DNA of 64,000 nucleotides, from the sequence record SRR31156797_4553; one strand, written 5' to 3'. Positions 3,715-15,900 of the stretch are shown piece by piece. Under the pieces are notes generated by a model, which saw nothing but the letters and a program-made list of their open reading frames with translations, was not told the DNA's origin and did not search any database. The position numbers were made by a program, and so were the translations under genes. How positions within the stretch are numbered: position 1 is the first letter of the stretch; each line of letters starts with the position of its first letter.

Positions 3715-4935
3715 TCATTTCCCGTCTGCCAATGATTTTTGTAAGGGATAAATACTATAGGGTTTACTGATAAAGTAGGCGACGGAGCAGACGATCACAA
3801 ACAAGGGCAGATTTTCAAAGCCAAAGACTTCCCCACCGATAAAGATCGGTGCAAATAAAGTGCTAGTAGCACTGCCAAAGACACTGGCATAGCCTAGGGC
3901 TGCCACCAGTTCGATAGGCAGTCCGAAGAGCGGTGCCAGCACGACGCCCAAAGAGGCGCCGATCGCAAACAAAGGGGTGACTTCTCCGCCCAAAAAACCA
4001 ATACTGATAGTCAGTACAGTTAACACCATCTTAAGCAGCCAGTCATAAGAATAGATTGGTTGATTCGTGAAACTAGCGCTGATCAAATTCGTTCCTAAAC
4101 CTGAATAACGACCATGATACAAAAGGACAAAAAGTAAGACTAGCACGAGTGAACCGATGCCGATGCGCCAGAGAGGATGAGGAAAGCGTCGTTTCATGAT
4201 CCGTTTCATCGTTTCTAATAATCCCGCAAAGCTGCCACCAACAATACCAAATAGTAAGCCAATCAAAAGTAATTTCAGAAAAACAGCCAAAGTCAAATCG
4301 GGGGACGGTGACAAAGCAAAACTAAATTTTTCTAATCCTAACAATTGAGAAGTCGTACTAGCAGTGAAAGCAGCCAGCAAAGTTGGTAAGAGTGCATGAT
4401 GACTGAATTTACCGATGACAAGTACCTCCAGTGCGAAGAACGTCGCAGCGATCGGGGTTTCAAATAAACCAGCAAATCCCGCAGCCATCCCAATCATGAT
4501 CAGGGTGCTGGCGTACTTTTCTAGTCGCAGCCATTTTCCTAAGCGATTGGCGATGGTGGCACCTAACTGAACCGCAACCCCTTCTCTGCCAGCGCTTCCT
4601 CCAAATAAATGCGTCAGCCAGGTTCCCACCATTACAAAAGGAATCAAGCGCAACGGAATGTCTTTTTCTTCTTCATGTCCGACTAAAAACACTAAATTCA
4701 TTCCCTGAGGACTTCGGTCACCGTACTTTTGGAACAGGTAAGTAAAACAAATGCCGATAATGGGTAAAAAGAGAATCAAGGGCAAAAAATGACTATCACG
4801 AAAGGCGCTTAAGGAAAGTAGGATCTTCCCAAAGAAGGTGTCGACGGCTCCAGCGAATACGCCAATAACCAGACTGACCACACCTAAAGCAGTCAGTTCC
4901 CAATTAGTTGTTTTTTGTTTCATCATTTCTATCAC
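3715..4935 (-). CDS. eriC: CLC-F (EriC-F) fluoride/proton antiporter; start may be ATG at 4926
   Basis: CLC-F subfamily signatures GMNLV, GREGV and GEVTP; fluoride riboswitch directly upstream. Confidence 0.9.
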   Translation of the reverse strand: MIEMMKQKTTNWELTALGVVSLVIGVFAGAVDTFFGKILLSLSAFRDSHFLPLILFLPIIGICFTYLFQKYGDRSPQGMNLVFLVGHEEEKDIPLRLIPFVMVGTWLTHLFGGSAGREGVAVQLGATIANRLGKWLRLEKYASTLIMIGMAAGFAGLFETPIAATFFALEVLVIGKFSHHALLPTLLAAFTASTTSQLLGLEKFSFALSPSPDLTLAVFLKLLLIGLLFGIVGGSFAGLLETMKRIMKRRFPHPLWRIGIGSLVLVLLFVLLYHGRYSGLGTNLISASFTNQPIYSYDWLLKMVLTVLTISIGFLGGEVTPLFAIGASLGVVLAPLFGLPIELVAALGYASVFGSATSTLFAPIFIGGEVFGFENLPLFVIVCSVAYFISKPYSIYPLQKSLADGK

Positions 4936-4994
4936 GATCCTTTAAAAAGAATATAGGAACAATGCTCCTGCAAATACGACGACCTAGTGAAAAT

Positions 4995-5084
4995 AAAAAA
5001 ATGACTGCTACACACTAAAAAAAGTGGTAGAAGTCATTAGCAAAATTGCGGTTTCAGTAAGAACTGAGGGAGACATTCATTCCC
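4995..5084 (-). promoter_or_regulatory. Fluoride (crcB) riboswitch with terminator expression platform
   Basis: Minus strand reads GGGAATGAATGTCTCCC-TCAGTTCTTACTGA-AACCGC-AATTTT-GCTAATGACTTCTAC, followed by a terminator (ATGACTTCTAC-CACT..AGTG-TGTAGCAGTCAT-T run) overlapping the aptamer 3' end. Confidence 0.93.
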
Positions 5085-5097
5085 GATTAGCATCAAT

Positions 5098-5126
5098 ATT
5101 ATCTGATAAAACCCTCCTTTTGTCAA
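5098..5126 (-). promoter_or_regulatory. SigA promoter of the fluoride riboswitch/eriC unit
   Basis: TTGACA-17 nt-GATAAT on the minus strand just upstream of the aptamer. Confidence 0.75.
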
Positions 5127-5324
5127 TGGATGTTTGTTGTGAAAAGCAATTCATCTAACACTTATCTTTTCTACATAGTTATGGTAAAATTAATCTCATA
5201 AGAACTTATATGGGAATTGAGCGCCTTGAGGATAATTGGCATGAAAAGGGATGAAAGGACGATCCTTCTACTGTTTTACCAAGGGTAAGACAGTGAGTAG
5301 TGAGGAATCGAAGAGGAATAAAAA

Positions 5325-6017
5325 ATGGTTGCATTTATGACGAGCGAAAAATGGCTGCAAAGTGAGCGTTTTTATTATGTGATCCTACCAATTCTCATGG
5401 TAGTTGGTCTGATTGCGTTATTAGGGTTCCTGATGGTTCTGCTTTATCGAGAAAACCGCAACCCAAAAGTGACGCTATTGCTTGGCGGCATAGTCGTTAC
5501 GTGTCTATTAGGTTTTTTTATTGGGGATCAAGTGTATGGTGAATTCAAAACGTATAATGCGCTGATCACACCGAATATCCGAGATCGCGAAAAGATGTTT
5601 CTAGGCTATAAATATTACGAATCTGATACTACAGCAATTTATCAGCGCATCCAAAGCAATGAAGCGATTGAAACTTTAGGAATCTATCAAGCAATACCGG
5701 TGGAACGGGCGATTGAATTTCTTGGTTCTGCTCATAACTCCGTATATTTTAAAATGGGCGCCCAGGTTTACTATGCTCGCTATCAACCGACTTTTGTGGA
5801 TGAGGAAACAACTGCTAAACTGCAGGGGGTTCAATACCATTTGACTGATCCTTCCTTTGAAACAATTGGTTTCTATTCCGAAACCAACAACTATTTAACG
5901 GCAATTACGATTCCAAAGTCCCAAGAAACCCTCGAATATCAATCCGTTGATTCTGTGATCCCGAAAGAATTTGGGAAAAGTCAAACCCAATGGGCGTTAC
6001 CGAATAGGAATGAATAA
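5325..6017 (+). CDS. Hypothetical membrane protein (two N-terminal TM helices plus a soluble domain)
   Basis: 230-aa ORF with RBS GAGG; hydrophobic segments at about aa 17-41 and 50-67. Confidence 0.7.
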   Translation: MVAFMTSEKWLQSERFYYVILPILMVVGLIALLGFLMVLLYRENRNPKVTLLLGGIVVTCLLGFFIGDQVYGEFKTYNALITPNIRDREKMFLGYKYYESDTTAIYQRIQSNEAIETLGIYQAIPVERAIEFLGSAHNSVYFKMGAQVYYARYQPTFVDEETTAKLQGVQYHLTDPSFETIGFYSETNNYLTAITIPKSQETLEYQSVDSVIPKEFGKSQTQWALPNRNE

Positions 6018-6021
6018 CGAT

Positions 6022-6089
6022 AAAAAAACTACCTAAGTCACGAAAGAAAGCTCCCTCAAGAAGGAAACTTCCGTGCGCAGGTAGTTTTT
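6022..6089. terminator. Bidirectional terminator (long interrupted stem)
   Basis: AAAAAACTACCT...AGGTAGTTTTTT between convergent genes. Confidence 0.65.
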
Positions 6090-6100
6090 TGCATGCTTGG

Positions 6101-6379
6101 TCAGAGAACATTGCTTTTCCTATGACTGATCAGGTAGTCCTCTTTCTTTTTGCGAGGCAATTTTTTGAAGGCGGCTTCTGCTTGAGTGGCTTTACTGCGA
6201 GTGGAAAAGCTTTCCGCATGGATCATTTGCAAGGGTCTGCGACTAGCGGGACGGGTATATTTTGCCCCGATCCCTTTGTTATGCTCTAATAAGCGGCGAC
6301 TCAAATCGGTAGTATAGCCGCCGTAAAAGGATTGGTCGTTGCAACGTAAGACATAAAAGTAATGGTTGTCAGCAGCCAT
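6101..6379 (-). CDS. GIY-YIG nuclease family protein (UPF0213, YazA-like)
   Basis: HYFYVLRC...FYGGYTTDLSRRLLEHN.G.GAKYTR; overlaps the methyltransferase stop as in the yabB-yazA pair. Confidence 0.9.
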   Translation of the reverse strand: MAADNHYFYVLRCNDQSFYGGYTTDLSRRLLEHNKGIGAKYTRPASRRPLQMIHAESFSTRSKATQAEAAFKKLPRKKKEDYLISHRKSNVL

Positions 6380-7103
6380 AGAGCATCGCCTTCACTTCTG
6401 GACTATAAGAGCCCGTTTCATCATAGGTAATGAGAGGAGAATCAATTTTAAACCCTTCCGCCTTACCATCCTTGATTCCTTCAATCAATAAAATATTGGC
6501 CTCTTTGCCTACTTTCGGATAGACGAAGCGGACTCGTTTTGGCGCGATTCGATGGGTGCGCATATGGTCCAAAATATCGAGAAAGCGATCCGGGCGATGA
6601 ACCATCGCAAACCTTCCATTCATTTTTAACGCTTTACTGGCGGTTTGGATCACTTCATCTAAATTTGTGGTGATCTCGTGCCGGGCGATCGCTAAATAAG
6701 GATTCGGGTTTTTGATCGCCGTCGGTATATTTTTAAAGTAAGGCGGATTGCAGACCAAAAGATCGACGGAATCAGGTTTGATTTTTTGAAAGAGATTCTT
6801 CAAATCCATAGGATAGACCGTCAGCTGTTCTTGCAAGTCATTTAATTCGATACTGCGCTGCGCCATATCCGCTAAGCGTTCCTGCAATTCGACCTGATAA
6901 ATATGAGCAGTCGTTTTTCTGCTGATAAATAAACCGACTGCGCCATTCCCTGCACAAAGGTCAACGATCACACCTCTTTTTGGTACTCTAGCGTAATTGG
7001 CTAATAAGACAGCATCTAATGAAAAAGAAAAAACTTCGGAACTCTGAATAATCTTGATGTCATCGGCATACAATTGGTCAATGCGTTCGTTCGGTTGCAA
7101 CAT
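6369..7103 (-). CDS. tRNA1(Val) A37 N6-methyltransferase family (YabB-like)
   Basis: FSLDAVLLA, DLCAGNG SAM-binding motif, NPPYF, ARHEI. Confidence 0.9.
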   Translation of the reverse strand: MLQPNERIDQLYADDIKIIQSSEVFSFSLDAVLLANYARVPKRGVIVDLCAGNGAVGLFISRKTTAHIYQVELQERLADMAQRSIELNDLQEQLTVYPMDLKNLFQKIKPDSVDLLVCNPPYFKNIPTAIKNPNPYLAIARHEITTNLDEVIQTASKALKMNGRFAMVHRPDRFLDILDHMRTHRIAPKRVRFVYPKVGKEANILLIEGIKDGKAEGFKIDSPLITYDETGSYSPEVKAMLYGC

Positions 7104-7240
7104 GAAGCATACTCCTGTTCTAAATTCATTTCAATGTATTATACTACGATTAAGAATAATGGGAAACGCTAAAAAAGGCTTGTCATTTAAACCGTTTTTT
7201 TGCATACTTGAATAGGAGAGAAATAGAAAGGAAAATGAGT

Positions 7241-7876
7241 ATGTTTTTTCGCTTTATGCGCGGTGTGGTTCGCGTAGTATTATTTTTGATCAACGGCAAT
7301 GCTCGTTATCAAAACAAAGAGGTTTTACCTAAAAATGAAAACTATATTTTAGTGGCTCCTCACCGAACCTGGTGGGATCCATTGTACCTAGCAGTGGCTG
7401 CTCGGCCAAAGAAATTCAGTTTTATGGCGAAAGAAGAGCTGTTCAAAAACCCGATTTTACGGTTCATTTTGATTCATGCCAATGCTTTTCCAGTCAAACG
7501 GGACAAACCAGGACCGAGCGCGGTAAAGACGCCAGTCAAAATCTTGAAGGAAACCGATCTTAGCTTGATCATGTTCCCAAGTGGTACGAGACATGCAACG
7601 GCCTTAAAAGGTGGCATGGCGTTGATCGCGAAAATGGCCAAAGTCAAGATCGTTCCCTCTGTTTATCAAGGACCGCTGACATTAAAGGATTTATTTAAAC
7701 GCAAGCGAGTGACTGTCCGTTTTGGGGAGCCAATCGATATCAGTGACATCAAAAAGATGGACAAAGAGGGCTTGGCGGAAGTGGAACGGCGCATACAAGG
7801 TGCATTTGACACACTGGATCAAGCGATCGATCCGTCATTTGTTTATCAAATCGATGAGTCCAAAAGAGAAGATTAA
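7241..7876 (+). CDS. plsC: 1-acyl-sn-glycerol-3-phosphate acyltransferase
   Basis: PHRTWWD (HX4D), FMAKEELF, FPSGTR motifs; start chosen from RBS AAGGA spacing. Confidence 0.92.
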   Translation: MFFRFMRGVVRVVLFLINGNARYQNKEVLPKNENYILVAPHRTWWDPLYLAVAARPKKFSFMAKEELFKNPILRFILIHANAFPVKRDKPGPSAVKTPVKILKETDLSLIMFPSGTRHATALKGGMALIAKMAKVKIVPSVYQGPLTLKDLFKRKRVTVRFGEPIDISDIKKMDKEGLAEVERRIQGAFDTLDQAIDPSFVYQIDESKRED

Positions 7877-7883
7877 TACCTAA

Positions 7884-7921
7884 GAAAAGCCGTTGATCCT
7901 TTTGTGATCAGCGGCTTTTTT
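7884..7921. terminator. Bidirectional terminator between plsC and the DUF871 gene
   Basis: AAAAGCCGTTGATC-N7-GATCAGCGGCTTTT. Confidence 0.8.
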
Positions 7922-7929
7922 CTAATGAT

Positions 7930-9021
7930 TTAATCCAACAATTCGAAAGCAAATTTGGTCCATGGTTTCAAATATTCCAACAAAGGCAACTCCTCTTTTG
8001 GGATAGCACCGACTTTGTTTTTTCGGGCGTCTTGGTGAGGGGTCAAAACGATCTGCAATTCGTTTTTGTACTGACCAAAGGTATCATTGCCGATAACGAT
8101 GTCCCCATAAGCAAACGGTTCTTGGTTTGTATGAGGGAGGTTTTCGATGGGACGGTATTTCACCCGTGATTGTGTGGACCGAGCGACTAACGCATTACTG
8201 TCACCGCGACGAAAATGATTGGTTTCAGCTAATATCCTCCGTTCGATTTCGCTGGCTTCTGCTTCTACGGAAACGCCAAAGGTCAGTTTGTAGCGATCGA
8301 TCGTTGCCAGAGCTTTCAGTTCTGCATCCGACGCATAGGCATTGCCAACAATCACCGTATCGATCAACCCAGAAGCAAAAAGCAGCTTTCCTTGCAACGC
8401 CAAAGGTAAATCGCGACAAGATTCTAAGGTTGGCAGGCCATCATTGACTTCCCAAGGGCCAATTTTGGCTGATTGACTAGTGATGAAGGCGGCTGTTTTC
8501 AACCCATATTTTTTAAAACGTTGACTGCAGTTGCGGAAAAAAGCCTCCGTTAAGCCTGTGCCTCGTTGGGGGTAAAAATTGTGGCAGCCATATAAAAAAG
8601 GTTCATTGGCTTGATAAGAAAGGATATTTTCTAAATAGTTCACATCATTACTCATGTTTAATTCAATCGCCAAGCCGAATGGATTGAAGGTCAGTTGGGC
8701 TTCTTTGCTGCCATCAAACCCTTGATCCAAGCGGATACCGTCCGCACCTAATTCTGCAAAGAAGCTTAGATCGTCATAAGAGATCGCCAGATCACTAAAA
8801 ACAGCTGGGGAAATATCTAAAATCGTTTCAAACCCAAGGTTCTTGGCAAACCCGATAATCGAAGAGAATTTTTTTCTGACGGTCTCTTTGCCTTCACTGA
8901 CTTCTAGCATACTCATAAATAAGCGAGAGTAACCAAGGGCAGCAGCTTTTTTTAAATAGTCTTGATCCAGTAAAGGATCGCTATGGTCGGGGTAAATCGA
9001 AAGGCCAATTTCTCGTTTCAA
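7930..9021 (-). CDS. DUF871 family phospho-sugar glycosidase (MupG-like)
   Basis: GLSIYP, DGIRLDQGF, IELNMS, GCHNFYPQRGTGL, GLPTLE, IVGNA, YKNELQI motifs of DUF871; TTG start with RBS GAGGG. Confidence 0.9.
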   Translation of the reverse strand: MKREIGLSIYPDHSDPLLDQDYLKKAAALGYSRLFMSMLEVSEGKETVRKKFSSIIGFAKNLGFETILDISPAVFSDLAISYDDLSFFAELGADGIRLDQGFDGSKEAQLTFNPFGLAIELNMSNDVNYLENILSYQANEPFLYGCHNFYPQRGTGLTEAFFRNCSQRFKKYGLKTAAFITSQSAKIGPWEVNDGLPTLESCRDLPLALQGKLLFASGLIDTVIVGNAYASDAELKALATIDRYKLTFGVSVEAEASEIERRILAETNHFRRGDSNALVARSTQSRVKYRPIENLPHTNQEPFAYGDIVIGNDTFGQYKNELQIVLTPHQDARKNKVGAIPKEELPLLEYLKPWTKFAFELLD

Positions 9022-9139
9022 TGGTTTTCCCTCTTTCTAAAAAAATCGTACGAAGCACCTCTTAGTATCGAAAAATGCTGCTGTGGAGCGCTTCTTCCGA
9101 TTGTCTTGATGGGTGCTTCGTCCGACCTTTATCAACAAA

Positions 9140-10435
9140 TTATTGTGTGACTGGTTGATTTTCTTTTTCCAATTCGTTTTTGTCATAGATTTTTACGAAT
9201 GGGTAATAGATCAGAATCGATAAAAGAATCAAAAGAACATTCAGCACGATCGCACGCCAATCGCCGCCAGTCGCTAAGAAAGCACCAATTGGTCCAGGCA
9301 ATGTCCAAGGGGCATTGACCGTGACGGCATTGACTAAACCTGCTGAGGTGGCGACCCATGCAATGACACCATTGATTAAAGGCGCAATGATGAACGGTGG
9401 GATCAAGATTGGATTCAAGACGATCGGTGTACCGAAAATCAGTGGTTCGTTGATGTTGAAAATAGCTGGAATTAAGGCTGTTTTTCCTAGTTTTGAACCG
9501 AATTCCGATTTTGTGCGAAAAGCTAACAAAATAGCCAAACCAATCGTTGAACCAGCCCCACCAATCCAGATGAACCATTGATAAAATGGTTCGGCTGCAA
9601 TATTGGGAATCATATCTCCCGATGCAAGCGCTGTTGTATTTCCTTCTAACAACTGTAACCATAATGGACGAGCCAGTGAACCAACGATAGAAGCACCATG
9701 GATCCCGAATGACCAGAAGAAGGTCGTCAAGAAGGTGATCAAAAGCACACTTGGCAAGGTATCTGCGGCACTGACTAAAGGATCGACGACTTTTGCCACG
9801 ATCGTGTGCCAGTCAAAACCGATATAGTAAGTGATCGCGCCCATTCCTAAAATGATCACTAAAGTGGGAGTCAAGGCTTCAAAAGAGCGAGCAACTGCAG
9901 GTGGGACTTGTTCTGGCATCGTGATTTTGAATTTCGATTTGTCCGTTAACCGATAGATTTCAACGGCAAGAATCGAGGTGATGATCGCCACGAACATACC
10001 AGCACTCCCTAAATTGGCCATTGGCAAGACAAAACCGACCGTTCCAGCTGCATCCAACGCTTCTGCTGGGATATTGACCGGGGTGAAGGTCAGTAAGAAG
10101 GCGGTCGTTGCTAAGATCCCGCCTGAAAGACCATCAAGCTTATAAGAGCGAGAAAGACTGTATCCGATCCCGAATGCAGCATACAAGCTCATAATGTACA
10201 TCGTCATTCGATAAGGCAATAAGATGGTTGTGGCATTGCTAGACAAGAATTGATAGATGCCCCAACTTTGAGGCAGCGGTGGAAAGGCTAAAATCATAAA
10301 GAACGAACTGACGATAATCAATGGCAATGTTGAAACGATCCCGTCACGAACCGCTCGCAAATGACGCTGGCTGCCAAGTTTTTCCATCGGTCCTGCCAGA
10401 TGGCGTTCGATGAACTGAGTGAATTTATCTAACAT
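9140..10435 (-). CDS. PTS EIIC component, lactose/cellobiose/chitobiose (Lac) family
   Basis: QRHLRAVRDG, IKITMPEQVPPAV-like, FFWSFGIHG, GGAGSTIGL, FNINEPLIFGTPIVLNP. Confidence 0.93.
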   Translation of the reverse strand: MLDKFTQFIERHLAGPMEKLGSQRHLRAVRDGIVSTLPLIIVSSFFMILAFPPLPQSWGIYQFLSSNATTILLPYRMTMYIMSLYAAFGIGYSLSRSYKLDGLSGGILATTAFLLTFTPVNIPAEALDAAGTVGFVLPMANLGSAGMFVAIITSILAVEIYRLTDKSKFKITMPEQVPPAVARSFEALTPTLVIILGMGAITYYIGFDWHTIVAKVVDPLVSAADTLPSVLLITFLTTFFWSFGIHGASIVGSLARPLWLQLLEGNTTALASGDMIPNIAAEPFYQWFIWIGGAGSTIGLAILLAFRTKSEFGSKLGKTALIPAIFNINEPLIFGTPIVLNPILIPPFIIAPLINGVIAWVATSAGLVNAVTVNAPWTLPGPIGAFLATGGDWRAIVLNVLLILLSILIYYPFVKIYDKNELEKENQPVTQ

Positions 10436-10456
10436 GGTTTATCCTCCTAAGATGTT

Positions 10457-11617
10457 TTACATTTTTGTTTCCCATGGATTCGGAATGATTTTTCCTAAAA
10501 TCACGCCTTGGGCTGCCCCGGTTGCTGCAGGGGCATTGTTGACACGGCTGTGAAGGGTTTCATTTCCTAAGATGGCGAAAGCCACCGCTTCTTTGGCATC
10601 GTTCGAACCGCCAATGTCATCTTGTGTTACAACGGCTACTGTTTCGGGTAAATAGCCTTTGATCATCTCAATCAGCAGATGGTTATGGGCGCCACCACCT
10701 GAAAGAATCACTTCAATATCATTTGTTCCCAACTGAGGGAAAATGAACCTTTGGTAACTGTCAGCAATGGAAAATGCGGTGAAATCGGTTAAAGTTCTCA
10801 CCAAGTCTTCCGATGCTACTTGGGGATATTCGGTCATTAGCTGCTGCACAAAATGTTTGCCAAATTGTTCACGTCCAGTGCTTTTCGGCGGTTGCTGGGA
10901 CAAATAAAAATGAGTTCTTAATTCCTTTTGCAAGGTGGGTATAATTGCTCCCGCTCGGGCTGTTTCACCAAACGCATCATAAGGCTGACCGAATAGCTGA
11001 ACCATTAGTTCATCGATGACCATGTTTCCTGGACCTGTATCAAAAGCATATAATTCGCTTAAGCCACCATTTTTAGGCAGAACCGTAACGTTGCCGATGC
11101 CGCCAATATTTTGCAATAAGCGATTTTTATCGCCTGATTGATAAAGCAGATAGTCCGTATAAGGTACAAGGGGCGCTCCTTGCCCGCCAGCAGCCATATC
11201 CATCACTCGGAAATCGGCGACGACTTTCGTTTGTAAGCCATAAGCAATAATCGAAGGTTCGCCAATTTGCAAGGTGCTGTTATTCGCTGGATCAGCATCG
11301 GGGGAGTGCCAGATCGTTTGTCCGTGGCTGGCAACAAAATCAATGCTTTTTTCTTCAATACCGGCTTTTTGGCAGAGGATTTGACACGCTTTCAAAAATT
11401 GATACCCTAATTCAGTATTTAATTGGCAGATGAGGGGAACATTTGATTCCACCGGATCACAAGCAGTTTTTATTCGTTCCTTCAATTCTTCACCAATGGG
11501 CAGTGTGAGCATTTCCATCAGCTGGACGTCAGTTTCGGTACCGCAGCCGTTGATTTTTACTAAAGCAGCGTCGATTCCATCCAAACTGGTTCCTGACATG
11601 AGTCCTATTGCAAGCAT
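10457..11617 (-). CDS. anmK: Anhydro-N-acetylmuramic acid kinase
   Basis: IGLMSGTSLDGID, SHGQT, DFR..D.AAGGQGAPLVP, NIGGIGN, FDTGPGN, KSTGREQFG, KEAVAFA; ATG 11617 follows RBS AAGGAG. Confidence 0.95.
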   Translation of the reverse strand: MLAIGLMSGTSLDGIDAALVKINGCGTETDVQLMEMLTLPIGEELKERIKTACDPVESNVPLICQLNTELGYQFLKACQILCQKAGIEEKSIDFVASHGQTIWHSPDADPANNSTLQIGEPSIIAYGLQTKVVADFRVMDMAAGGQGAPLVPYTDYLLYQSGDKNRLLQNIGGIGNVTVLPKNGGLSELYAFDTGPGNMVIDELMVQLFGQPYDAFGETARAGAIIPTLQKELRTHFYLSQQPPKSTGREQFGKHFVQQLMTEYPQVASEDLVRTLTDFTAFSIADSYQRFIFPQLGTNDIEVILSGGGAHNHLLIEMIKGYLPETVAVVTQDDIGGSNDAKEAVAFAILGNETLHSRVNNAPAATGAAQGVILGKIIPNPWETKM

Positions 11618-11646
11618 ATCTTTTCTCCTTTCTTTTAGAATAGTGA

Positions 11647-11739
11647 TGAAAGCGATTGTTGAATTCGATTTCACACTCATTGTAAATGAAGTGTAATTAT
11701 ATTTCAAGATATAAATTTATAATTGAAAAAACATTTCAA
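11647..11739 (-). promoter_or_regulatory. anmK operon promoter with repeated TGWAW..TTTCA operator-like boxes and a cre-like site
   Basis: Minus-strand TTGAAA(11702-11707)-17-TACAAT(11679-11684); boxes TGTAATTATATTTCA (11692-11706), TGAAAAAACATTTCA (11724-11738), TGAATTCGATTTCA (11660-11673); TGAAAGCGATTGTT (11647-11660). Confidence 0.55.
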
Positions 11740-11871
11740 CATAATGATGTTAGGTGTTCGCTATTTTTATCAAAAATGGGTGGTAAATGAAATTTCGCTG
11801 GAAGAGAGATGTCTAACGATCAGGGAAAGTGGTATAATGATTGGAAGGATATTTTTTAAGAAGGTGAAGAA

Positions 11872-12993
11872 ATGCGCTTTATACATACAGCTGATTGGCA
11901 CATCGGAAAAAAACTACATGGCTATGATCTGCTGGAAGACCAACGAGCAATCATTGATCAAATCATAGCGCTAGCAAGAGCAGAAAAGGTCGATGCCATC
12001 GTCATTGCGGGGGACCTTTATGATCGTTCGGTTCCTGCTGTTGATGCAGTCAAATTACTAAATGAAAAAATCGCTGAAATCAATTTAACGAATGAACTGC
12101 CATTATTGGCTATCTCAGGAAATCATGATAGTCCAACTCGTTTAGAAACCGGCAGTCAGTGGTTTCAACAAACACGCTTTTACCTGTCCACCAGCATCGA
12201 ACAAAGTTTGCACCCGGTTGAGTTTGACGATACACAATTCTTTTTACTACCGTATTTCGAACCCATCGAGGCCCGCTTGTTTTTTGATGAACCATTAATG
12301 AAGATTTCTGATAGTGTCCAAAGAGTCATTGAGGAGATGACCAAGAACTTTGACTCGTCCAAAAAGCAAGTGCTAGTGACCCATTTCTTTGTGGCGGGTT
12401 CTAGCCAAACAGATTCAGAAACAAAAATTCAAGTTGGCGGATTGGACAGCGTACCGACCACCGCTTTTGCGCCTTTTGATCGGGTTGTTTTAGGCCATTT
12501 ACATGCCAATACGGCTCTCAAACACCCAAAGATCGGGTACAGCGGCTCACCACTGAAATTTTCCCTTTCTGAACGGACGAACCAAAAAGGGATCTATCTT
12601 ATTGATACCGTAAAAGATACCAATGAATTTATTCCATTGACACCAAAAAGGGATATCCAGCAGCTGACGGCGTCCTTTGAGGAGTTGATCGATCCGGTTT
12701 TTTACCGTGATCTGGATCGTGAGGCGTTTTGTCATTTTCTGCTGACGGATCGTGCTGTGATTCCAAATATGATGAATCAGTTGCGAAAAATCTATCCATT
12801 TATTTTGTCTGTCGAACGGTTGAATGGACGAGAACAGACGAAAAAAAGACAGCTAACGACACGAGAAACCGACCCGCAGACCTTGATCAGTCATTTTTTT
12901 CAAGAAATGACGGGAGATTCATTGCTCGATTCACAAACCAAATGGATCGAACAAGGATTAAATGAAGCATTTGTCGTGGAAAAGAGGGAATAG
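11872..12993 (+). CDS. sbcD: Exonuclease SbcD
   Basis: HTADWHIG, IAGDLYD, SGNHD, LGHLH, YSGSPLKFS metallophosphoesterase motifs. Confidence 0.95.
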   Translation: MRFIHTADWHIGKKLHGYDLLEDQRAIIDQIIALARAEKVDAIVIAGDLYDRSVPAVDAVKLLNEKIAEINLTNELPLLAISGNHDSPTRLETGSQWFQQTRFYLSTSIEQSLHPVEFDDTQFFLLPYFEPIEARLFFDEPLMKISDSVQRVIEEMTKNFDSSKKQVLVTHFFVAGSSQTDSETKIQVGGLDSVPTTAFAPFDRVVLGHLHANTALKHPKIGYSGSPLKFSLSERTNQKGIYLIDTVKDTNEFIPLTPKRDIQQLTASFEELIDPVFYRDLDREAFCHFLLTDRAVIPNMMNQLRKIYPFILSVERLNGREQTKKRQLTTRETDPQTLISHFFQEMTGDSLLDSQTKWIEQGLNEAFVVEKRE

Positions 12994-12995
12994 TC

Positions 12996-15900
12996 ATGCA
13001 ACCGAAGTCTTTACAAATGAAAAATTTTGGTCCATTCATTGATGAAAAATTGGATTTTAGTCAGCTGCAAGCTGGCGGGTTGTTTTTGATCAGCGGTAAA
13101 ACTGGTGCAGGAAAAACGACGATTTTCGATGGAATGACGTTTGCCTTGTTCGGTGAAACATCGGGGAATCTGCGCTCAGGCAAAGAAATGCGATCGATGT
13201 TTGCTTCACCAACCGAAGAGACCAGCGTCACCTTTACTTTTGAACATCAGCGTTTTACTTACCAGATCCAACGGAAACCGGAACAGACCTTAGCAAAAAA
13301 ACGTGGTGACGGGGTCACCAACCAAACGGCAAAAGTCCAGCTGACAATTTTTGACGCCGAGGGCAAAGAGAAAAAGCAGATCAGTAAACGGACAGAGGTT
13401 GATGCATTTATCAAGGATCTGCTGCAGCTGGATGCCAAACAGTTTTTTCAAATCATGATGTTGCCGCAAGGAGAATTTCGTAATTTTTTGATTGCCAGCA
13501 GCAATGAGAAAGAACGCGTTTTACGGAATTTATTTGGCACGGAAATGTATCAACAATTTAATGAATGGTTGAAAGAGCAAGTCAAAGCACAAAGTAAAAA
13601 GCTTGAGCATCAGCAGCTGCTCGCCTCGCAAATCATGGAGCGCTTTGAATGGGAAGAAGCGCAGGAGGTTTTAACGGTTGCGGAAGGTCTTACTTTGTGG
13701 GCGCAGGATTTAGAAAAACAACAGGCGCAGCTTCAGCAGTTATTGCACAAAAAAGACCAAGCGATCCAAGAAATGAAAGCTGCGCAAGACGCTTTTTACC
13801 GTGCAAAAGAAATTGAAAATGCACGGATCGAATGGCAAGGTCTACAAGAAAAAGCCCGAGAGCTGCATGCTAAAAAAACCGAGATCGCTCAGAAAAAAGC
13901 CCAGTTGAACCAGTTGGTGTGGGCGCTTGAACATCAAGAAATCATGCAGCAAAAAGAAGAACGAGTGAAAGAAGCACAGCAAGCTACTCAGCAAATCAAC
14001 GAAACAAAGCAGCAGCTGCAAGAAATTCAGCAGCAACAAGTAAGCTGGCAAGACCAACGAGCGTTGATTGACGGCATCAAGAAAAAACAGGAAGCTGCTA
14101 GTCAAAAAGTTCAACGAATCCAGCAGCAGATCCCGCTAGCACAGCGCACACAAGCGCAGCAAGAAGAAGTGGTGCAACTTGAAAAAGCCGCACAAAAACA
14201 GACCACCGAATTAACGAAGATAAACCAAGCGCAAGCAAGTGCCAAAGCGCAAGCGCAGCATCTGGCAGAAGAAATCGAAGCATTGCGAGGGTTTCAAGCA
14301 GAAGCGGTGAAATTAGTAGAAACGCAGGCTCTGGTAGAAAAATGGCAGCAAGCAAAAGCGCAGTTTCGTGAAGCCGAGCAAAAAGCAGGGGAACAGCAAC
14401 AAATTCATTCGGAGTTGGTTCTTGAAAAACAGCAATTAGCAGCATCCTTGCTGGAGCTGCAAAAAACGTTAAAACAAGAAACCAGTCAAAATGCTCGAAT
14501 GCAAATTGCTCGGCTTCGTCTTTTGCTGGAAGAAAATGAACCCTGTCCGGTTTGCGGATCATTGGATCATCCGAATACACAGGAGCACACGACCTATCGC
14601 ATCGAAGACATCATTGCCAGTGAACAAAGACTTGAGCAAACACAAGAAAAATTGACGAAGATCCAGCAGCAAGTATCGGCAAATCAAACGCTGCAGGAGC
14701 AAGCCACATTGCGAATCAGCGAATGGCAAGCCACCAGTGTTGCTGCGCAGAAGCAAGTGGCATTCGCTTGGACTGCAGTTCAACAGGCATTTGCTGCCTT
14801 GCAGCCGATAGAAAACCAAGAGACGATTACCGAGGAAACGGCGGTAGCGGAACTAAAGAAACGGCAATCTTTCAATCAACAAAAAGCCGCTTCTTATGAA
14901 GACGCGCAGAAGAAACATCAGGCAGTAAATGAGAAATTAGCAACGTTAAATGAGTCCTATCAGCAAGTCAGTGAGCAAGCGAAAAAAGCCCAAGAAGCGC
15001 GCCAGCTTGCGGAGGGGAAATTGGCTTCTTTACAGGAACAACTTGCAGGCGCAACGTATGAACAATTACAAGCCGATTTAGCAAAAACCAATGGTTTACT
15101 GAGGGAATATACGCAACAAATTGAGGCTGATGCCCGACAAGAAGCGCAGCTAAACGAACAGCAAGCGATTCTTTCAGAGAAGCTGAAAAATCTGCAGCAA
15201 TTTTTTGAACAAAAGCAAGCGGCTAAGACAAAAGCAGAACAACGACTGACGCAGCGACTTCAAGAAGCTGGTATGACTGAGGAAACGATGCGGGAATTGA
15301 TTGCCCAAGCCGCTCAAACAACCGTTCTCTCAGAAGAAATCAAAACCTATGAGCAAGAAACGGTGTTTGTTCAGCAACGGCTAGCATTGTTAGATGCACA
15401 GTTAAAAGAGCAAGCTGCGATTGATTTAAACCAATTGGAAGCTGACTACCTTCAGTTGCAGACCGTGATGGAGGAACTACAGCAAGAAACAGTTCGCAAA
15501 CAGGAGAAAGTCAACGGCAATCAACGGTTGTTTGACGAGCTGCAGGTCATTTATCAGCAAAATGTCGAAGAACTGGCCCAATTAGGCCAACTTCAGCAGT
15601 TGGCAGAAACCATCAACGGCGAAAACGTCAAAAAAACCAGCTTGGAACGGTATGTACTGCAGCAATTTCTGACAGAGATCTTAGAAGTCGCCAATGAACG
15701 CTTGGCTCGGTTGACTCGTGGCCGCTATCAATTTGAATTAGCGGATAAAGTTGGGAGCTATCGAAGCTCAACAGGCTTAGAAATTGACATCTATGACGAT
15801 AATGCTGGTCAAGTCAGAAGAGCACATACACTGTCAGGCGGTGAAAGCTTTATTGCAGCCTTAGCGTTAGCAATCTCTTTAGCAGATGTGATCCAGCAAC

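What the first reader, a model, noticed from the sequence alone, without database searches (positions are those of the whole stretch)
7930..11617. anmK + orphan Lac-family PTS EIIC + DUF871 glycosidase: possible new route for salvaging anhydro-disaccharide cell-wall fragments
Seen: three co-oriented genes (anmK, EIIC, DUF871) with no EIIA/EIIB, murQ or regulator next to them. Known: S. aureus MupG (DUF871) cleaves MurNAc-6P-GlcNAc imported by the Glc-family PTS MurP and needs no AnmK. AnmK acts on free 1,6-anhydro-MurNAc, whose O6 is tied up in the anhydro ring. Lac/Chb-family EIICs import beta-1,4 disaccharides and phosphorylate the non-reducing sugar. Inference: this unit may import GlcNAc-anhMurNAc (a lytic-transglycosylase product) as GlcNAc-6P-anhMurNAc. 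The DUF871 enzyme would release anhMurNAc for AnmK, giving an AmpG/NagZ-independent pathway and a different DUF871 specificity.
Basis: partly seen in the sequence, partly recalled or inferred. Interest (0 to 1): 0.7.

Follow-up and report, generated by a model that had tools for sequence, protein, structure and literature searches.

The report
Anhydro-muramic-acid salvage operon with PTS permease
An Enterococcus casseliflavus-group bacterium carries a stripped-down copy of a widespread but unstudied gene cluster that most likely imports cell-wall sugar fragments ending in anhydro-muramic acid through a sugar-phosphotransferase permease and feeds them into the known MurNAc breakdown route.

Summary
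On the minus strand lie anmK (10457-11617), a Lac/cellobiose-family PTS EIIC (9140-10435) and a DUF871/GH170 protein (7930-9021). No EIIA, EIIB, murQ, murR or sugar kinase was found anywhere in the 64-kb window.

The linkage is not chance. The EIIC belongs to one subfamily that sits beside anmK across Bacillota and Coriobacteriia. Among the 80 closest EIIC relatives, picked by EIIC similarity alone, 53 have anmK, 55 DUF871, 48 a BadF-type kinase, 46 murR and 41 murQ within 6 kb. The window holds a minimal version. Five named sister Enterococcus loci keep only anmK-EIIC.

The DUF871 lies in the Lac-PTS-linked half of the family, deeply separated from the MurP/MurQ-linked MupG clade. However, anmK-linked DUF871s are not one clade.

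Best reading (about 0.5): GlcNAc-anhMurNAc, and probably GlcNAc-MurNAc, enters and is phosphorylated on GlcNAc. GH170 then releases anhMurNAc. AnmK and the unlinked MurQ finish the job.

Rivals:
- The EIIC takes up free anhMurNAc.
- A phosphate-free, NagZ-like route.

No paper found describes this. It is a new variant of a known kind and a directly testable lead.

The parts
11723..11739 (-). Inverted repeat TTGAAATGTTTTTTCAA upstream of the -35 box; a possible operator.
   Evidence: Read. Related forms occur at the same place in the anmK upstream regions of genus relatives (alignment). No regulator has been assigned; inference only.
11679..11707 (-). Sigma-70-like promoter: TTGAAA, 17-nt spacer, TACAAT.
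   Evidence: It matches 10 of 12 consensus positions. The region as a whole held 13 promoter-like sites against 9.4 expected, so the scan alone is weak. The site is conserved in 7 genus relatives with sequence.
11660..11673 (-). cre-like box TGAAATCGAATTCA over the predicted transcript start; probable CcpA catabolite control.
   Evidence: Sequence. It is conserved with at most 1-2 changes in the genus relatives. The cre consensus itself is recalled, not taken from a tool.
10457..11617 (-). anmK, anhydro-N-acetylmuramic acid kinase (386 aa).
   Evidence: Pfam PF03702 at 320.7 bits. NCBIfam equivalog NF007142 at 520 bits, above the 435 cut-off. Start codon and ribosome-binding site read.
9140..10435 (-). 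PTS EIIC of the lactose/cellobiose/chitobiose family (431 aa), belonging to the anmK-associated subfamily.
   Evidence: TIGR00410 at 389.6 bits, above the 236 cut-off, but below all three equivalog cut-offs. It scores 263 bits against the solved chain 3qnq_A, and the GIHG and NINE motifs are kept. In the EIIC tree it falls in a 97* clade where 29 of 38 rows lie within 8 kb of anmK.
9039..9130 (-). Long hairpin followed by U7 in the 118-nt gap between EIIC and DUF871; a terminator-like or attenuator-like element.
   Evidence: RNA fold of -38.5 kcal/mol with z -5.65; 0 of 200 shuffles fold as well. It is conserved in two relatives, including a C-to-T change that keeps pairing as G-U. No Rfam family matches it.
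7930..9021 (-). DUF871 / CAZy GH170 glycosidase (363 aa) of the Lac-PTS-linked clade, carrying Cys202 in place of a near-invariant His.
   Evidence: MupG_N at 309.1 bits and MupG_C at 119.6 bits. It scores 402 bits against PDB 1x7f. It keeps 28 of 29 columns that are at least 95% conserved and differs only at residue 202.
7882..7921 (-). Intrinsic terminator after DUF871, shared with the convergent acyltransferase gene.
   Evidence: Fold of -16.3 kcal/mol with z -4.26; 1 of 200 shuffles folds as well. The stem is followed by UUUUCUU. The simple scan did not list it.

Best explanation
This is a reduced copy of a widespread catabolic cluster for peptidoglycan sugar fragments that end in 1,6-anhydro-MurNAc.

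Proposed steps:
1. The EIIC, using EIIA/EIIB borrowed from another Lac-family PTS of the cell, imports GlcNAc-beta-1,4-anhMurNAc. It probably also imports GlcNAc-beta-1,4-MurNAc, which is chitobiose with a lactyl ether. It phosphorylates O6 of the non-reducing GlcNAc.
2. The GH170/DUF871 enzyme cleaves the 6-phospho-disaccharide into GlcNAc-6P and anhMurNAc.
3. AnmK opens the anhydro ring and makes MurNAc-6P.
4. MurQ, encoded in the separate mupG-murQ-murP operon, converts MurNAc-6P to GlcNAc-6P and D-lactate.

In fuller clusters of other genera a BadF-type kinase would phosphorylate the free MurNAc (or GlcNAc) that is released, and MurR would regulate. Expression is probably from one promoter under catabolite control, with a terminator-like hairpin lowering read-through into the DUF871 gene.

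What is shown: gene identities, conserved linkage, phylogenetic placement, and the presence of partner genes in the nearest held genome.

What is inferred: the substrate, the site of phosphorylation, the enzyme specificity and co-transcription.
For: 1. Identities of the three genes.

2. Linkage in a class-wide sample of 401 genomes. AnmK was over the cut-off in 81 and MupG_N in 117. 20 genomes had both; in 11 of these the two genes lie within 3 kb of each other, in 1 they are 6.5 kb apart, and in 8 they are unlinked.

3. Gene content of the 11 other linked loci: EIIC in 10, MurR 9, BadF-type kinase 9, EIIA 9, EIIB 8, MurQ 7, GH4 6.

4. A survey selected by EIIC similarity only (the best 80 of 381 relatives). 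Within 6 kb or less: AnmK 53/80, DUF871 55/80, kinase 48/80, MurR 46/80, MurQ 41/80.

5. EIIC tree. The window EIIC lies in a 97* clade with 29 of 38 rows anmK-linked. Outside that clade only 1 of 25 rows is anmK-linked.

6. DUF871 trees. There is a deep split (99-100*) between the MurP-linked MupG clade and the Lac-PTS-linked clade that holds the window protein. Eight columns discriminate the two clades, and the window has the Lac-clade residue at 7 of them.

7. Genetic precedent. GH170 ChbE in a Lac-type PTS operon is needed for diacetylchitobiose growth (PMC12791066, passages).

8. The substrates exist in Firmicutes. A B. subtilis nagZ mutant accumulates GlcNAc-anhMurNAc, and about tenfold less GlcNAc-MurNAc, outside the cell and does not take them up (PMC8054146, passages).

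9. Partner genes in the nearest held genome G001: a single murQ in a DUF871-murQ-murP operon, four Lac-type EIIA genes and many EIIB genes inside other PTS clusters, and MltG present.

10. The GIHG and NINE motifs shared with 3qnq are kept in 61 of 63 EIICs, including every EIIC of the anmK-only loci.

11. A weak hint of read-through. One 2942-nt contig of an oligo-dT RNA library (X16) spans 8717-11658 across both gene junctions. That run's cover breaks at the promoter gap and near the end terminator.
Against: - There is no biochemical or genetic test of any of these proteins.
- Five named sister loci (L120-L124) and several other Enterococcus loci have anmK-EIIC, or EIIC-kinase-anmK, without a DUF871 nearby. 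The glycosidase is therefore not an obligatory neighbour.
- anmK-linked DUF871s are polyphyletic.
- The closest non-anmK relatives of the window DUF871 (64-71% identity) work in genomes without AnmK.
- The BadF-type kinase common in fuller clusters is not needed if only GlcNAc-6P and anhMurNAc are produced.
- No cluster in this family carries EIIA/EIIB, so phosphorylation on import is assumed, not seen.
- A strong hairpin with a U-run lies between EIIC and DUF871.
- The window enzyme has Cys where 101 of 110 relatives have His.
- Contigs cannot prove a single transcript.
Confidence: 0.5

Rival explanations
1. The conserved core is anmK plus the EIIC. The EIIC takes up free 1,6-anhydro-MurNAc, whose O6 cannot be phosphorylated, by facilitated diffusion, and AnmK traps it as MurNAc-6P. 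The DUF871 serves a second substrate of the same permease, such as GlcNAc-MurNAc or chitobiose.
For: - anmK-EIIC without DUF871 occupies the same syntenic slot (sbcDC on one side, the acyltransferase on the other) in 5 of 8 genomes of the genus and in the named loci L120-L124.
- No EIIA/EIIB occurs in any of the 20 family loci.
- Free anhMurNAc accumulates in B. subtilis wild-type medium (PMC8054146, passages).
- The EIIC, not the DUF871, is the gene that tracks anmK phylogenetically.
Against: - Bacillaceae-like, Clostridium and Coriobacteriia versions do carry EIIA and EIIB inside the cluster.
- The GIHG and NINE motifs are kept in all anmK-only EIICs. That these motifs serve phosphoryl transfer is recalled, not tested here.
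- 42 of the 53 anmK-linked loci also have DUF871.
- Lac-family EIICs characteristically carry beta-linked disaccharides (established knowledge, partly).
Confidence: 0.2
2. A phosphate-free analogue of the E. coli route. The EIIC plays AmpG, DUF871 plays NagZ on unphosphorylated GlcNAc-anhMurNAc, the BadF-type kinase plays NagK, and AnmK and MurQ follow. Alternatively, the kinase phosphorylates the disaccharide inside the cell before cleavage.
For: - The core gene set of fuller clusters (EIIC, DUF871, BadF-type kinase, AnmK, MurQ, MurR) maps one-to-one onto AmpG, NagZ, NagK, AnmK, MurQ, MurR (the E. coli pathway is described in the passages).
- No EIIA/EIIB occurs in the clusters of this family.
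- An earlier scan note reports a DUF871 domain in a PTS-free operon (e1-1088062; unchecked).
Against: - The only characterised GH170 needs the 6-phosphate substrate made by a PTS (PMC6262408, passages).
- The window and its genus lack the BadF-type kinase altogether.
- EIIA/EIIB are present in many clusters of other taxa.
Confidence: 0.12
3. A Lac-family alternative to MurP for MurNAc-GlcNAc. DUF871 acts as a MupG-like 6-phospho-muramidase, the kinase takes the GlcNAc, and anmK only shares regulation.
For: - DUF871, a GlcNAc kinase, MurQ and MurR are exactly what MurNAc-6P-GlcNAc breakdown needs.
- The fate of the released GlcNAc in S. aureus is stated to be unknown (passage).
Against: - The protein is on the far side of the deepest split from the MurP-linked clade.
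- The nearest genome already has a complete DUF871-murQ-murP operon, and some loci carry both systems side by side (L116, L117).
- This reading gives AnmK no source of anhMurNAc.
Confidence: 0.08
4. An ordinary beta-glucoside or chitobiose PTS fragment that happens to lie next to anmK, with DUF871 separately transcribed.
For: - DUF871 has been proposed as a cellobiose-6P hydrolase in B. coagulans CELO2 (PMC6271610, passages).
- A hairpin with a U-run separates EIIC and DUF871.
- The closest DUF871 relatives sit in non-anmK sugar operons.
Against: - Linkage of this EIIC subfamily with anmK, murQ and murR recurs across phyla.
- The anmK-EIIC-(kinase)-DUF871 order is kept in three genera at 62-69% DUF871 identity.
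Confidence: 0.05

Closest known systems
Staphylococcus aureus mupG-murQ-murP-murR recycling operon (Kluj et al. 2018, PMC6262408)
   Same: A PTS permease imports a peptidoglycan disaccharide. A cytoplasmic GH170/DUF871 enzyme cleaves the 6-phospho-disaccharide, and MurQ finishes the pathway. The window protein has the same two Pfam domains.
   Different: - The permease here is Lac-family EIIC only, not a Glc-family MurP EIIBC(A).
- The DUF871 is in the other deep clade of the family.
- anmK is present.
- murQ and the regulator are not in the operon.
- The predicted glycone is GlcNAc-6P, not MurNAc-6P.
Escherichia coli anhydro-muropeptide recycling: AmpG, NagZ, NagK, AnmK, MurQ, MurR
   Same: The same end of the pathway: anhMurNAc is converted to MurNAc-6P by AnmK, then to GlcNAc-6P by MurQ. 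Fuller clusters carry a counterpart for every step.
   Different: - The permease is a PTS EIIC, not an MFS AmpG.
- The glycosidase is GH170, not GH3.
- Phosphorylation probably happens on import.
- There is no peptide-handling gene in the cluster.
Lacticaseibacillus paracasei chb operon: PTS-Chb, ChbD (DUF3284), ChbE (GH170) (PMC12791066)
   Same: A Lac-family PTS is coupled to a GH170 enzyme acting on a GlcNAc-beta-1,4-X disaccharide. An unknown ORF of about 100 aa follows the EIIC in many fuller anmK clusters, as chbD follows chbC.
   Different: - The chb operon has no anmK, murQ or kinase.
- Its substrate is diacetylchitobiose.
- The small ORFs tested here gave no Pfam hit.
- The window has no such ORF.
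Bacillus subtilis murQ-murR-murP-amiE-nagZ-namZ system (PMC8054146)
   Same: [quoted passage not shown]
   Different: B. subtilis cleaves them outside the cell and imports monosaccharides. The disaccharides are not taken up, and anhMurNAc is left in the medium. The cluster here would import them and use AnmK.
Bacillus coagulans CELO2 (celR-celB-celA-celX-celC; PMC6271610)
   Same: A Lac-family PTS with a DUF871 gene (celX) in place of a GH1 or GH4 phospho-glucosidase.
   Different: It is linked to cellobiose use, has no cell-wall genes, and the role of the enzyme was only suggested.

Membership tests
AnmK (anhydro-N-acetylmuramic acid kinase) | Full-length match to the family model above the curated equivalog cut-off. 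| tested here: met
   NF007142 scores 520 bits against a 435 cut-off, covering residues 29-411 of the long ORF. PF03702 scores 320.7 bits.
AnmK (anhydro-N-acetylmuramic acid kinase) | ATP-dependent conversion of anhMurNAc to MurNAc-6P. | not testable with these tools
   This needs an enzyme assay.
PTS Lac/cellobiose/chitobiose family EIIC (TC 4.A.3) | Match to the subfamily model TIGR00410 above its cut-off, with the EIIC fold. | tested here: met
   389.6 bits against a 236 cut-off. 263 bits against solved chain 3qnq_A over residues 7-426.
Cellobiose-, lactose- or chitobiose-specific EIIC equivalogs | Score above the equivalog cut-off of TIGR00359, TIGR00394 or NF007634. | tested here: not met
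   389.6 < 434.45, 252.2 < 614.4 and 169.5 < 760.
Complete Lac-family PTS | EIIA and EIIB encoded with the EIIC. | tested here: not met
   None was found in the 64-kb window. In the nearest genome G001, EIIA and EIIB lie only inside other PTS clusters.
GH170 / DUF871 (MupG family) | Both MupG_N and MupG_C domains, and family-conserved residues. | tested here: met
   309.1 and 119.6 bits. 28 of 29 columns at least 95% conserved are kept; the exception is His to Cys at residue 202.
MupG proper (6-phospho-N-acetylmuramidase orthologues) | Membership of the clade linked to murP and murQ. | tested here: not met
   The window protein is in the Lac-PTS-linked clade, split at SH-aLRT 99-100 from the clade where 42 of 45 rows are MurP-linked. 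A true MurP-linked paralogue exists elsewhere in G001 (L039).
MupG proper (6-phospho-N-acetylmuramidase orthologues) | Hydrolysis of MurNAc-6P-GlcNAc. | not testable with these tools
   This needs an enzyme assay.
E. coli-type anhMurNAc catabolic pathway | MurQ etherase present to take the AnmK product. | tested here: met
   TIGR00274 gives one hit over the cut-off in each of 4 of 4 genus genomes, for example G001:C53 at 392.3 bits against 302. It is not in the window.
E. coli-type anhMurNAc catabolic pathway | AmpG permease and a NagZ acting in the cytoplasm. | not tested
   AmpG was not searched for. GH3 proteins exist in G001 (6 hits), but their specificity and location were not examined.

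The most novel reading that the evidence does not exclude
A PTS EIIC has been uncoupled from phosphotransfer. It works as a plain channel for free 1,6-anhydro-MurNAc, a sugar with no O6 to phosphorylate, and the ring-opening kinase AnmK takes the place of EIIB as the trapping step. The two-gene anmK-EIIC unit of the sister Enterococcus species would then be the complete system, and DUF871 would be an add-on that extends it to disaccharides.
Probability: 0.17. Interest if true: 0.8.

Novelty: new variant of a known kind. Interest (0 to 1): 0.62.

Why it matters
How Gram-positive bacteria deal with the anhydro-sugar ends made by lytic transglycosylases is largely unknown. B. subtilis leaves GlcNAc-anhMurNAc and anhMurNAc outside the cell, and I know of no AnmK of a Firmicute that has been studied (recalled).

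This cluster would give Bacillota and Coriobacteriia, many of them gut dwellers, an AmpG- and NagZ-independent way to eat or recycle such fragments, including those shed by neighbours. These fragments are also the molecules that animal hosts sense.

It would also assign a second specificity to the GH170 family and a substrate to a whole subfamily of 'cellobiose' EIICs that are now mis-annotated.

The natural series in one genus group offers ready-made comparisons for experiments: the full cluster, the trio, and the anmK-EIIC pair.

Tried and rejected
- The search of the window's own assembly failed because it is not held. I used the nearest held genome G001 instead, so statements about 'elsewhere in the genome' rest on a relative sharing 81% of sampled words.
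- Earlier scan notes by place and by five words gave nothing.
- Rfam gave only a sub-threshold miRNA chance hit.
- Paper search was badly framed (119,200 papers) and is useless.
- RNA contigs of runs X1, X2 and X4 are 9-34 kb pieces that run across everything. They say nothing about transcription.
- After I considered that the window species had re-acquired a DUF871 from another operon. I rejected this, where the DUF871s of two other genera with the same gene order form a 95* clade with it. Loss in the sister species is the simpler reading.
- The small ORFs after EIIC in fuller clusters, and the 94-aa ORF in L038, gave no Pfam family, so a DUF3284/ChbD link could not be shown.
- No stand-alone BadF-type kinase was found in four genus genomes.
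- 3qnq is not the EIIC next to the B. cereus-type DUF871 (309 bits only), so that structure says nothing direct about DUF871-linked permeases.
- I did not predict a structure. The tool returns no coordinates, and the nearest solved homologue (1x7f) has no ligand information available to me.

Full report
**What is there**

The window carries three co-oriented genes on the minus strand.
- anmK (10457-11617) starts at an ATG seven bases after AAAGGAG. It passes the NCBIfam equivalog cut-off for anhydro-N-acetylmuramic acid kinase: NF007142 at 520 bits against 435, and Pfam AnmK at 320.7 bits.
- An EIIC gene (9140-10435) follows 21 bases after the anmK stop. It is a member of the lactose/cellobiose/chitobiose PTS family (TIGR00410, 389.6 bits against 236). 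It reaches none of the three substrate-specific equivalog cut-offs.
- After a 118-base gap comes a DUF871 gene (7930-9021, TTG start) with both MupG domains, at 309.1 and 119.6 bits. CAZy now calls this family GH170 (PMC12791066, passages).
- The neighbours are unrelated: an acyltransferase, a methyltransferase, a ClC channel, EF-P, a CDF transporter and sbcD.
- A tblastn panel of EIIA, EIIB, MurQ, MurR, MurP, BadF-type kinase, GH1 and GH4 queries found nothing else in the whole 64 kb.

**Organism**

The window's own assembly is not held. The nearest held genome, G001, shares 81% of sampled words and has the same locus at 99% DUF871 identity. Loci whose EIIC is 100% identical carry the titles Enterococcus casseliflavus and E. 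innesii (L118, L119).

**Signals**

- A promoter-like site (TTGAAA, 17 nt, TACAAT; 11707-11679) was called by the scan. It is conserved in seven genus relatives.
- Directly after it lies TGAAATCGAATTCA (11673-11660), also conserved. It fits the cre consensus as I recall it, which suggests catabolite repression.
- The EIIC-DUF871 gap folds into a long hairpin followed by seven U: -38.5 kcal/mol, z -5.65, 0 of 200 shuffles as stable.
  - The hairpin is kept in two relatives, with a G-C to G-U change.
  - It matches no Rfam family.
- A second hairpin with a U-run follows DUF871.
- In one oligo-dT RNA library (X16), a 2942-base contig runs from 8717 to 11658 across both junctions. Cover breaks in the promoter gap and near the end terminator.
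  - This is a weak hint of read-through, not proof of one transcript.
  - The other three runs gave only genome-sized contigs.

**Is the linkage more than chance?**

In a sample of 401 genomes of the class, AnmK was over its cut-off in 81 and MupG_N in 117. Twenty genomes had both.
- In 11 of these, the two genes lie within 3 kb of each other.
- In 1 they lie 6.5 kb apart.
- In 8 they are unlinked.

I fetched the 12 linked loci. L006 is G001's near-identical copy of the window locus and is left out of the counts. The other 11 linked loci contain further shared genes. Pfam and NCBIfam name them as follows.

| Gene | Loci with it (of 11) |
|---|---|
| Lac-family EIIC | 10 |
| MurR/RpiR regulator | 9 |
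| BadF/NagK-like kinase | 9 |
| Lac-type EIIA | 9 |
| Lac-type EIIB | 8 |
| MurQ etherase | 7 |
| GH4 glycosidase | 6 |

The window therefore holds a stripped-down version of a larger cell-wall-sugar cluster.

**A test that does not select on anmK**

I took the 80 best of 381 relatives of the window EIIC in the species-representative genome collection (62-100% identity) and asked what lies within 6 kb.

| Gene within 6 kb | Loci (of 80) |
|---|---|
| DUF871 | 55 |
| AnmK | 53 |
| BadF-type kinase | 48 |
| MurR | 46 |
| MurQ | 41 |
| GH1 | 27 |
| EIIB | 26 |
| EIIA | 25 |
| GH4 | 4 |

- Several loci are cut by contig ends, so these counts are lower bounds.
- The titles span Enterococcus, Vagococcus, Clostridium, Erysipelotrichaceae and Coprobacillaceae, Granulicatella, Carnobacterium, a Streptococcus, and Coriobacteriia such as Olsenella and Atopobiaceae.
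- The four full-length Tetragenococcus loci (L150-L153) show none of these genes nearby.

**Which gene tracks anmK?**

The EIIC does.
- In a tree of 63 DUF871- or anmK-adjacent EIICs (quick IQ-TREE, LG+G4, SH-aLRT only), the window EIIC lies in a 97* clade of 38 rows. 29 of these are within 8 kb of anmK.
- An inner 100* clade of 16 rows is entirely anmK-linked.
- Outside the clade only 1 of 25 rows is anmK-linked, and that one is on a long branch.
- These loci were chosen for having DUF871 or anmK, so the tree is not a sample of all Lac-family EIICs.

The DUF871 tree behaves differently.
- Ninety-eight DUF871 proteins were used. They come from the class sample, thinned in three over-represented genera.
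- They split deeply (99*) into two clades.
  - One clade of 45 rows has 42 next to a Glc-family MurP and MurQ. This is MupG proper, and it includes a paralogue of G001.
  - The other clade of 53 rows is linked to Lac-family PTS genes and holds the window protein.
- Three labels were wrong because the anmK ORF had been dropped, was partial or lay 6.5 kb away. I relabelled by tblastn and rebuilt the tree with the family loci.
- The window protein forms a 95* clade of seven, all anmK-linked, with proteins from two other genera (62-69% identity).
- That clade is nested among non-anmK, Lac-linked proteins. One of these is the solved B. cereus protein 1x7f (402 bits to the window protein; about 800 bits to L019).
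- Holding all 22 anmK-linked Lac-clade rows together costs 438 log-likelihood units (AU p 2e-9). I named that group after seeing the tree.

These proteins are apart from MupG, but they are not one clade.

**Within the family**

AnmK occurs in 41 of 134 genomes and in 8 of 8 of the window's genus. I looked at 20 anmK loci.
- In the genus, the slot between sbcDC and the acyltransferase holds anmK-EIIC-DUF871 in three genomes and anmK-EIIC alone in five.
- The titled loci tell the same story.
  - E. casseliflavus and E. innesii have the trio.
  - E. gallinarum, Ca. E. testudinis and three Enterococcus sp. (L120-L124) have anmK and EIIC but no DUF871 in the flank.
  - E. sulfureus and an uncultured Enterococcus have anmK-EIIC-kinase-DUF871 with a divergent murR.
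  - E. cecorum has murR, then murQ-anmK-EIIC-kinase-DUF871.
- Other genera have murQ-EIIC-small ORF-kinase-DUF871-anmK-murR, or EIIC-small ORF-kinase-anmK without DUF871.
- None of the 20 loci carries EIIA or EIIB.
- Since the DUF871s of the three genera with the window's gene order form one clade, the trio is best read as ancestral there, with loss of DUF871 in the sister species.

**Partner genes**

These were checked in G001 and three genus genomes.
- One murQ over the cut-off is present in each genome. In G001 it lies in a DUF871-murQ-murP(EIIBCA) operon.
- Four Lac-type EIIA genes and many EIIB genes are present, all inside other complete Lac-type PTS clusters. The orphan EIIC would have to borrow from them.
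- There is no stand-alone BadF-type kinase.
- MltG, a lytic transglycosylase family, is present.
- Several GH3 proteins are present, with unknown specificity.

**State of the enzyme and permease**

- The DUF871 keeps 28 of 29 columns that are at least 95% conserved over 94 relatives.
- The exception is residue 202, in the motif TLExHR next to invariant Glu200 and Arg203. The seven proteins of the window's clade all have Cys. Of 110 relatives, 101 have His and 2 have Gln.
- A change kept across three genera looks like adaptation rather than decay. Its meaning is unknown.
- Eight columns separate the MupG clade from the Lac-linked clade, and the window has the Lac-clade residue at seven.
- The EIIC aligns over its whole length to the solved B. 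cereus EIIC 3qnq (263 bits). It keeps the GIHG and NINE motifs, as do 61 of 63 EIICs examined, including all those from anmK-only loci. That these motifs hold the His and Glu proposed to act in phosphoryl transfer is my recollection of the structure paper, not a result here.

**Mechanism**

- AnmK needs free anhMurNAc in the cytoplasm.
- In peptidoglycan, anhMurNAc is always preceded by GlcNAc, and its own O6 is locked in the anhydro ring. The only O6 that a PTS could phosphorylate on GlcNAc-anhMurNAc is therefore that of GlcNAc.
- Lac-family systems phosphorylate the non-reducing sugar. This is established knowledge; the lactose case is stated in the passages.
- GlcNAc-MurNAc is diacetylchitobiose with a lactyl ether on the reducing sugar. 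A GH170 in a Lac-type PTS operon is genetically needed for diacetylchitobiose use in L. paracasei.
- The simplest scheme that uses every core gene is this:
  1. The EIIC (plus EIIA/EIIB) imports GlcNAc-(anh)MurNAc as the GlcNAc-6-phosphate form.
  2. GH170 cleaves it.
  3. AnmK takes anhMurNAc and the BadF-type kinase takes MurNAc. MurK-type kinases of this fold are known (recalled). Earlier scan notes read such pairs the same way (e1-5627152, unchecked).
  4. MurQ and MurR follow.
- Both disaccharides are real turnover products of a Firmicute. A B. subtilis nagZ mutant accumulates much GlcNAc-anhMurNAc and about tenfold less GlcNAc-MurNAc in the medium and does not import them. Free anhMurNAc is left in wild-type medium (PMC8054146, passages).

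I put this reading at about 0.5.

**Rivals**

- The anmK-EIIC pairs without any glycosidase, and the absence of EIIA/EIIB from every cluster of this family, keep alive the idea that the EIIC admits free anhMurNAc and AnmK traps it (about 0.2).
- They also keep alive a phosphate-free AmpG/NagZ-like route (about 0.1).
- A MupG-like role on MurNAc-GlcNAc is unlikely, given the deep split and the coexisting murP systems.
- A chance neighbour of a beta-glucoside operon is very unlikely, given the conservation.

**Is it known?**

No paper describing an anmK-linked Lac-family PTS, or any GH170 acting on an anhydro-disaccharide, turned up in these searches:

| Search terms | Papers found |
|---|---|
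| MupG + anmK | 2 |
| DUF871 | 7 |
| anhMurNAc + phosphotransferase system + Gram-positive | 18 |
| MupG / 6-phospho / peptidoglycan recycling, since 2019 | 45 |
| GH170 | 52, 20 listed |
| anhydro-N-acetylmuramic acid kinase + cellobiose | 4 |
| AnmK + MurK | 6 |
| GlcNAc-anhMurNAc + phosphotransferase | 14 |

- I judged most of these from listings and abstracts. I read passages only of PMC6262408, PMC6271610, PMC12791066, PMC8054146, the bioRxiv preprint 10.1101/2023.07.03.547542 and one table of PMC11633334.
- In that table, a C. difficile murQ and anmK carry locus tags five genes apart.
- The library lacks most subscription journals, and supplements were closed. [quoted passage not shown]

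**Verdict**

This is a real, conserved and apparently unstudied variant of PTS-dependent cell-wall sugar salvage. It is seen here in minimal form.

Noticed in passing
window 9039-9130 (minus strand): A very stable hairpin with a U-run lies between EIIC and DUF871 (-38.5 kcal/mol, z -5.65). It is conserved in two relatives and matches no Rfam family. It may be a partial terminator, an attenuator or a processing site.
   Followed up: partly
window 8416-8418 (codon 202 of the DUF871 gene): There is a Cys where 101 of 110 relatives have His, in the motif TLExHR. Exactly the seven proteins of the anmK-linked Enterococcus clade share it.
   Followed up: partly
window 11723-11739 and 11660-11673: An inverted repeat TTGAAATGTTTTTTCAA lies upstream of the -35 box, and a cre-like box lies over the predicted transcript start. 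Both are conserved in genus relatives.
   Followed up: partly
L010-L012, L017, L102, L103, L110, L116, L117 (ORF directly after the EIIC): A conserved ORF of about 90-120 aa follows the EIIC in most fuller clusters. The two tested (from L011 and L008) gave no Pfam or NCBIfam hit. Its position matches chbD (DUF3284) of the L. paracasei chb operon.
   Followed up: partly
L038 (G001:C56) 3900-13636: A second DUF871 of the near genome sits in a cluster with GH1, two EIICs, an EF_0837-like deacetylase, a SelA-like PLP enzyme, a KDGP aldolase and a PfkB kinase. The same block recurs in L030, L036, L043 and L053. It is an unexplained amino-sugar-like route.
   Followed up: no
L019, L021, L022, L024, L026, L028: These loci have two DUF871 genes from different subclades flanking a PRD regulator, EIIA, EIIB and EIIC. 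The downstream one is the solved protein 1x7f ('outer surface protein', about 800 bits).
   Followed up: partly
L037 (G001:C64) 7634-8728: A third DUF871 paralogue stands alone between a cyclophilin and an alpha/beta hydrolase, near obg, with no PTS gene nearby. The same context occurs in L018 and L020.
   Followed up: no
L010-L012, L014, L015, L017, L164, L166, L177: A GH4 glycosidase accompanies DUF871 in some clusters. It could take N-deacetylated (GlcN-6P) forms, by analogy with E. coli ChbF as described. This is speculation.
   Followed up: no
window 7600-12000: Many metatranscriptome runs labelled ant or insect gut metagenome hold this stretch at 75-80% of sampled words.
   Followed up: no
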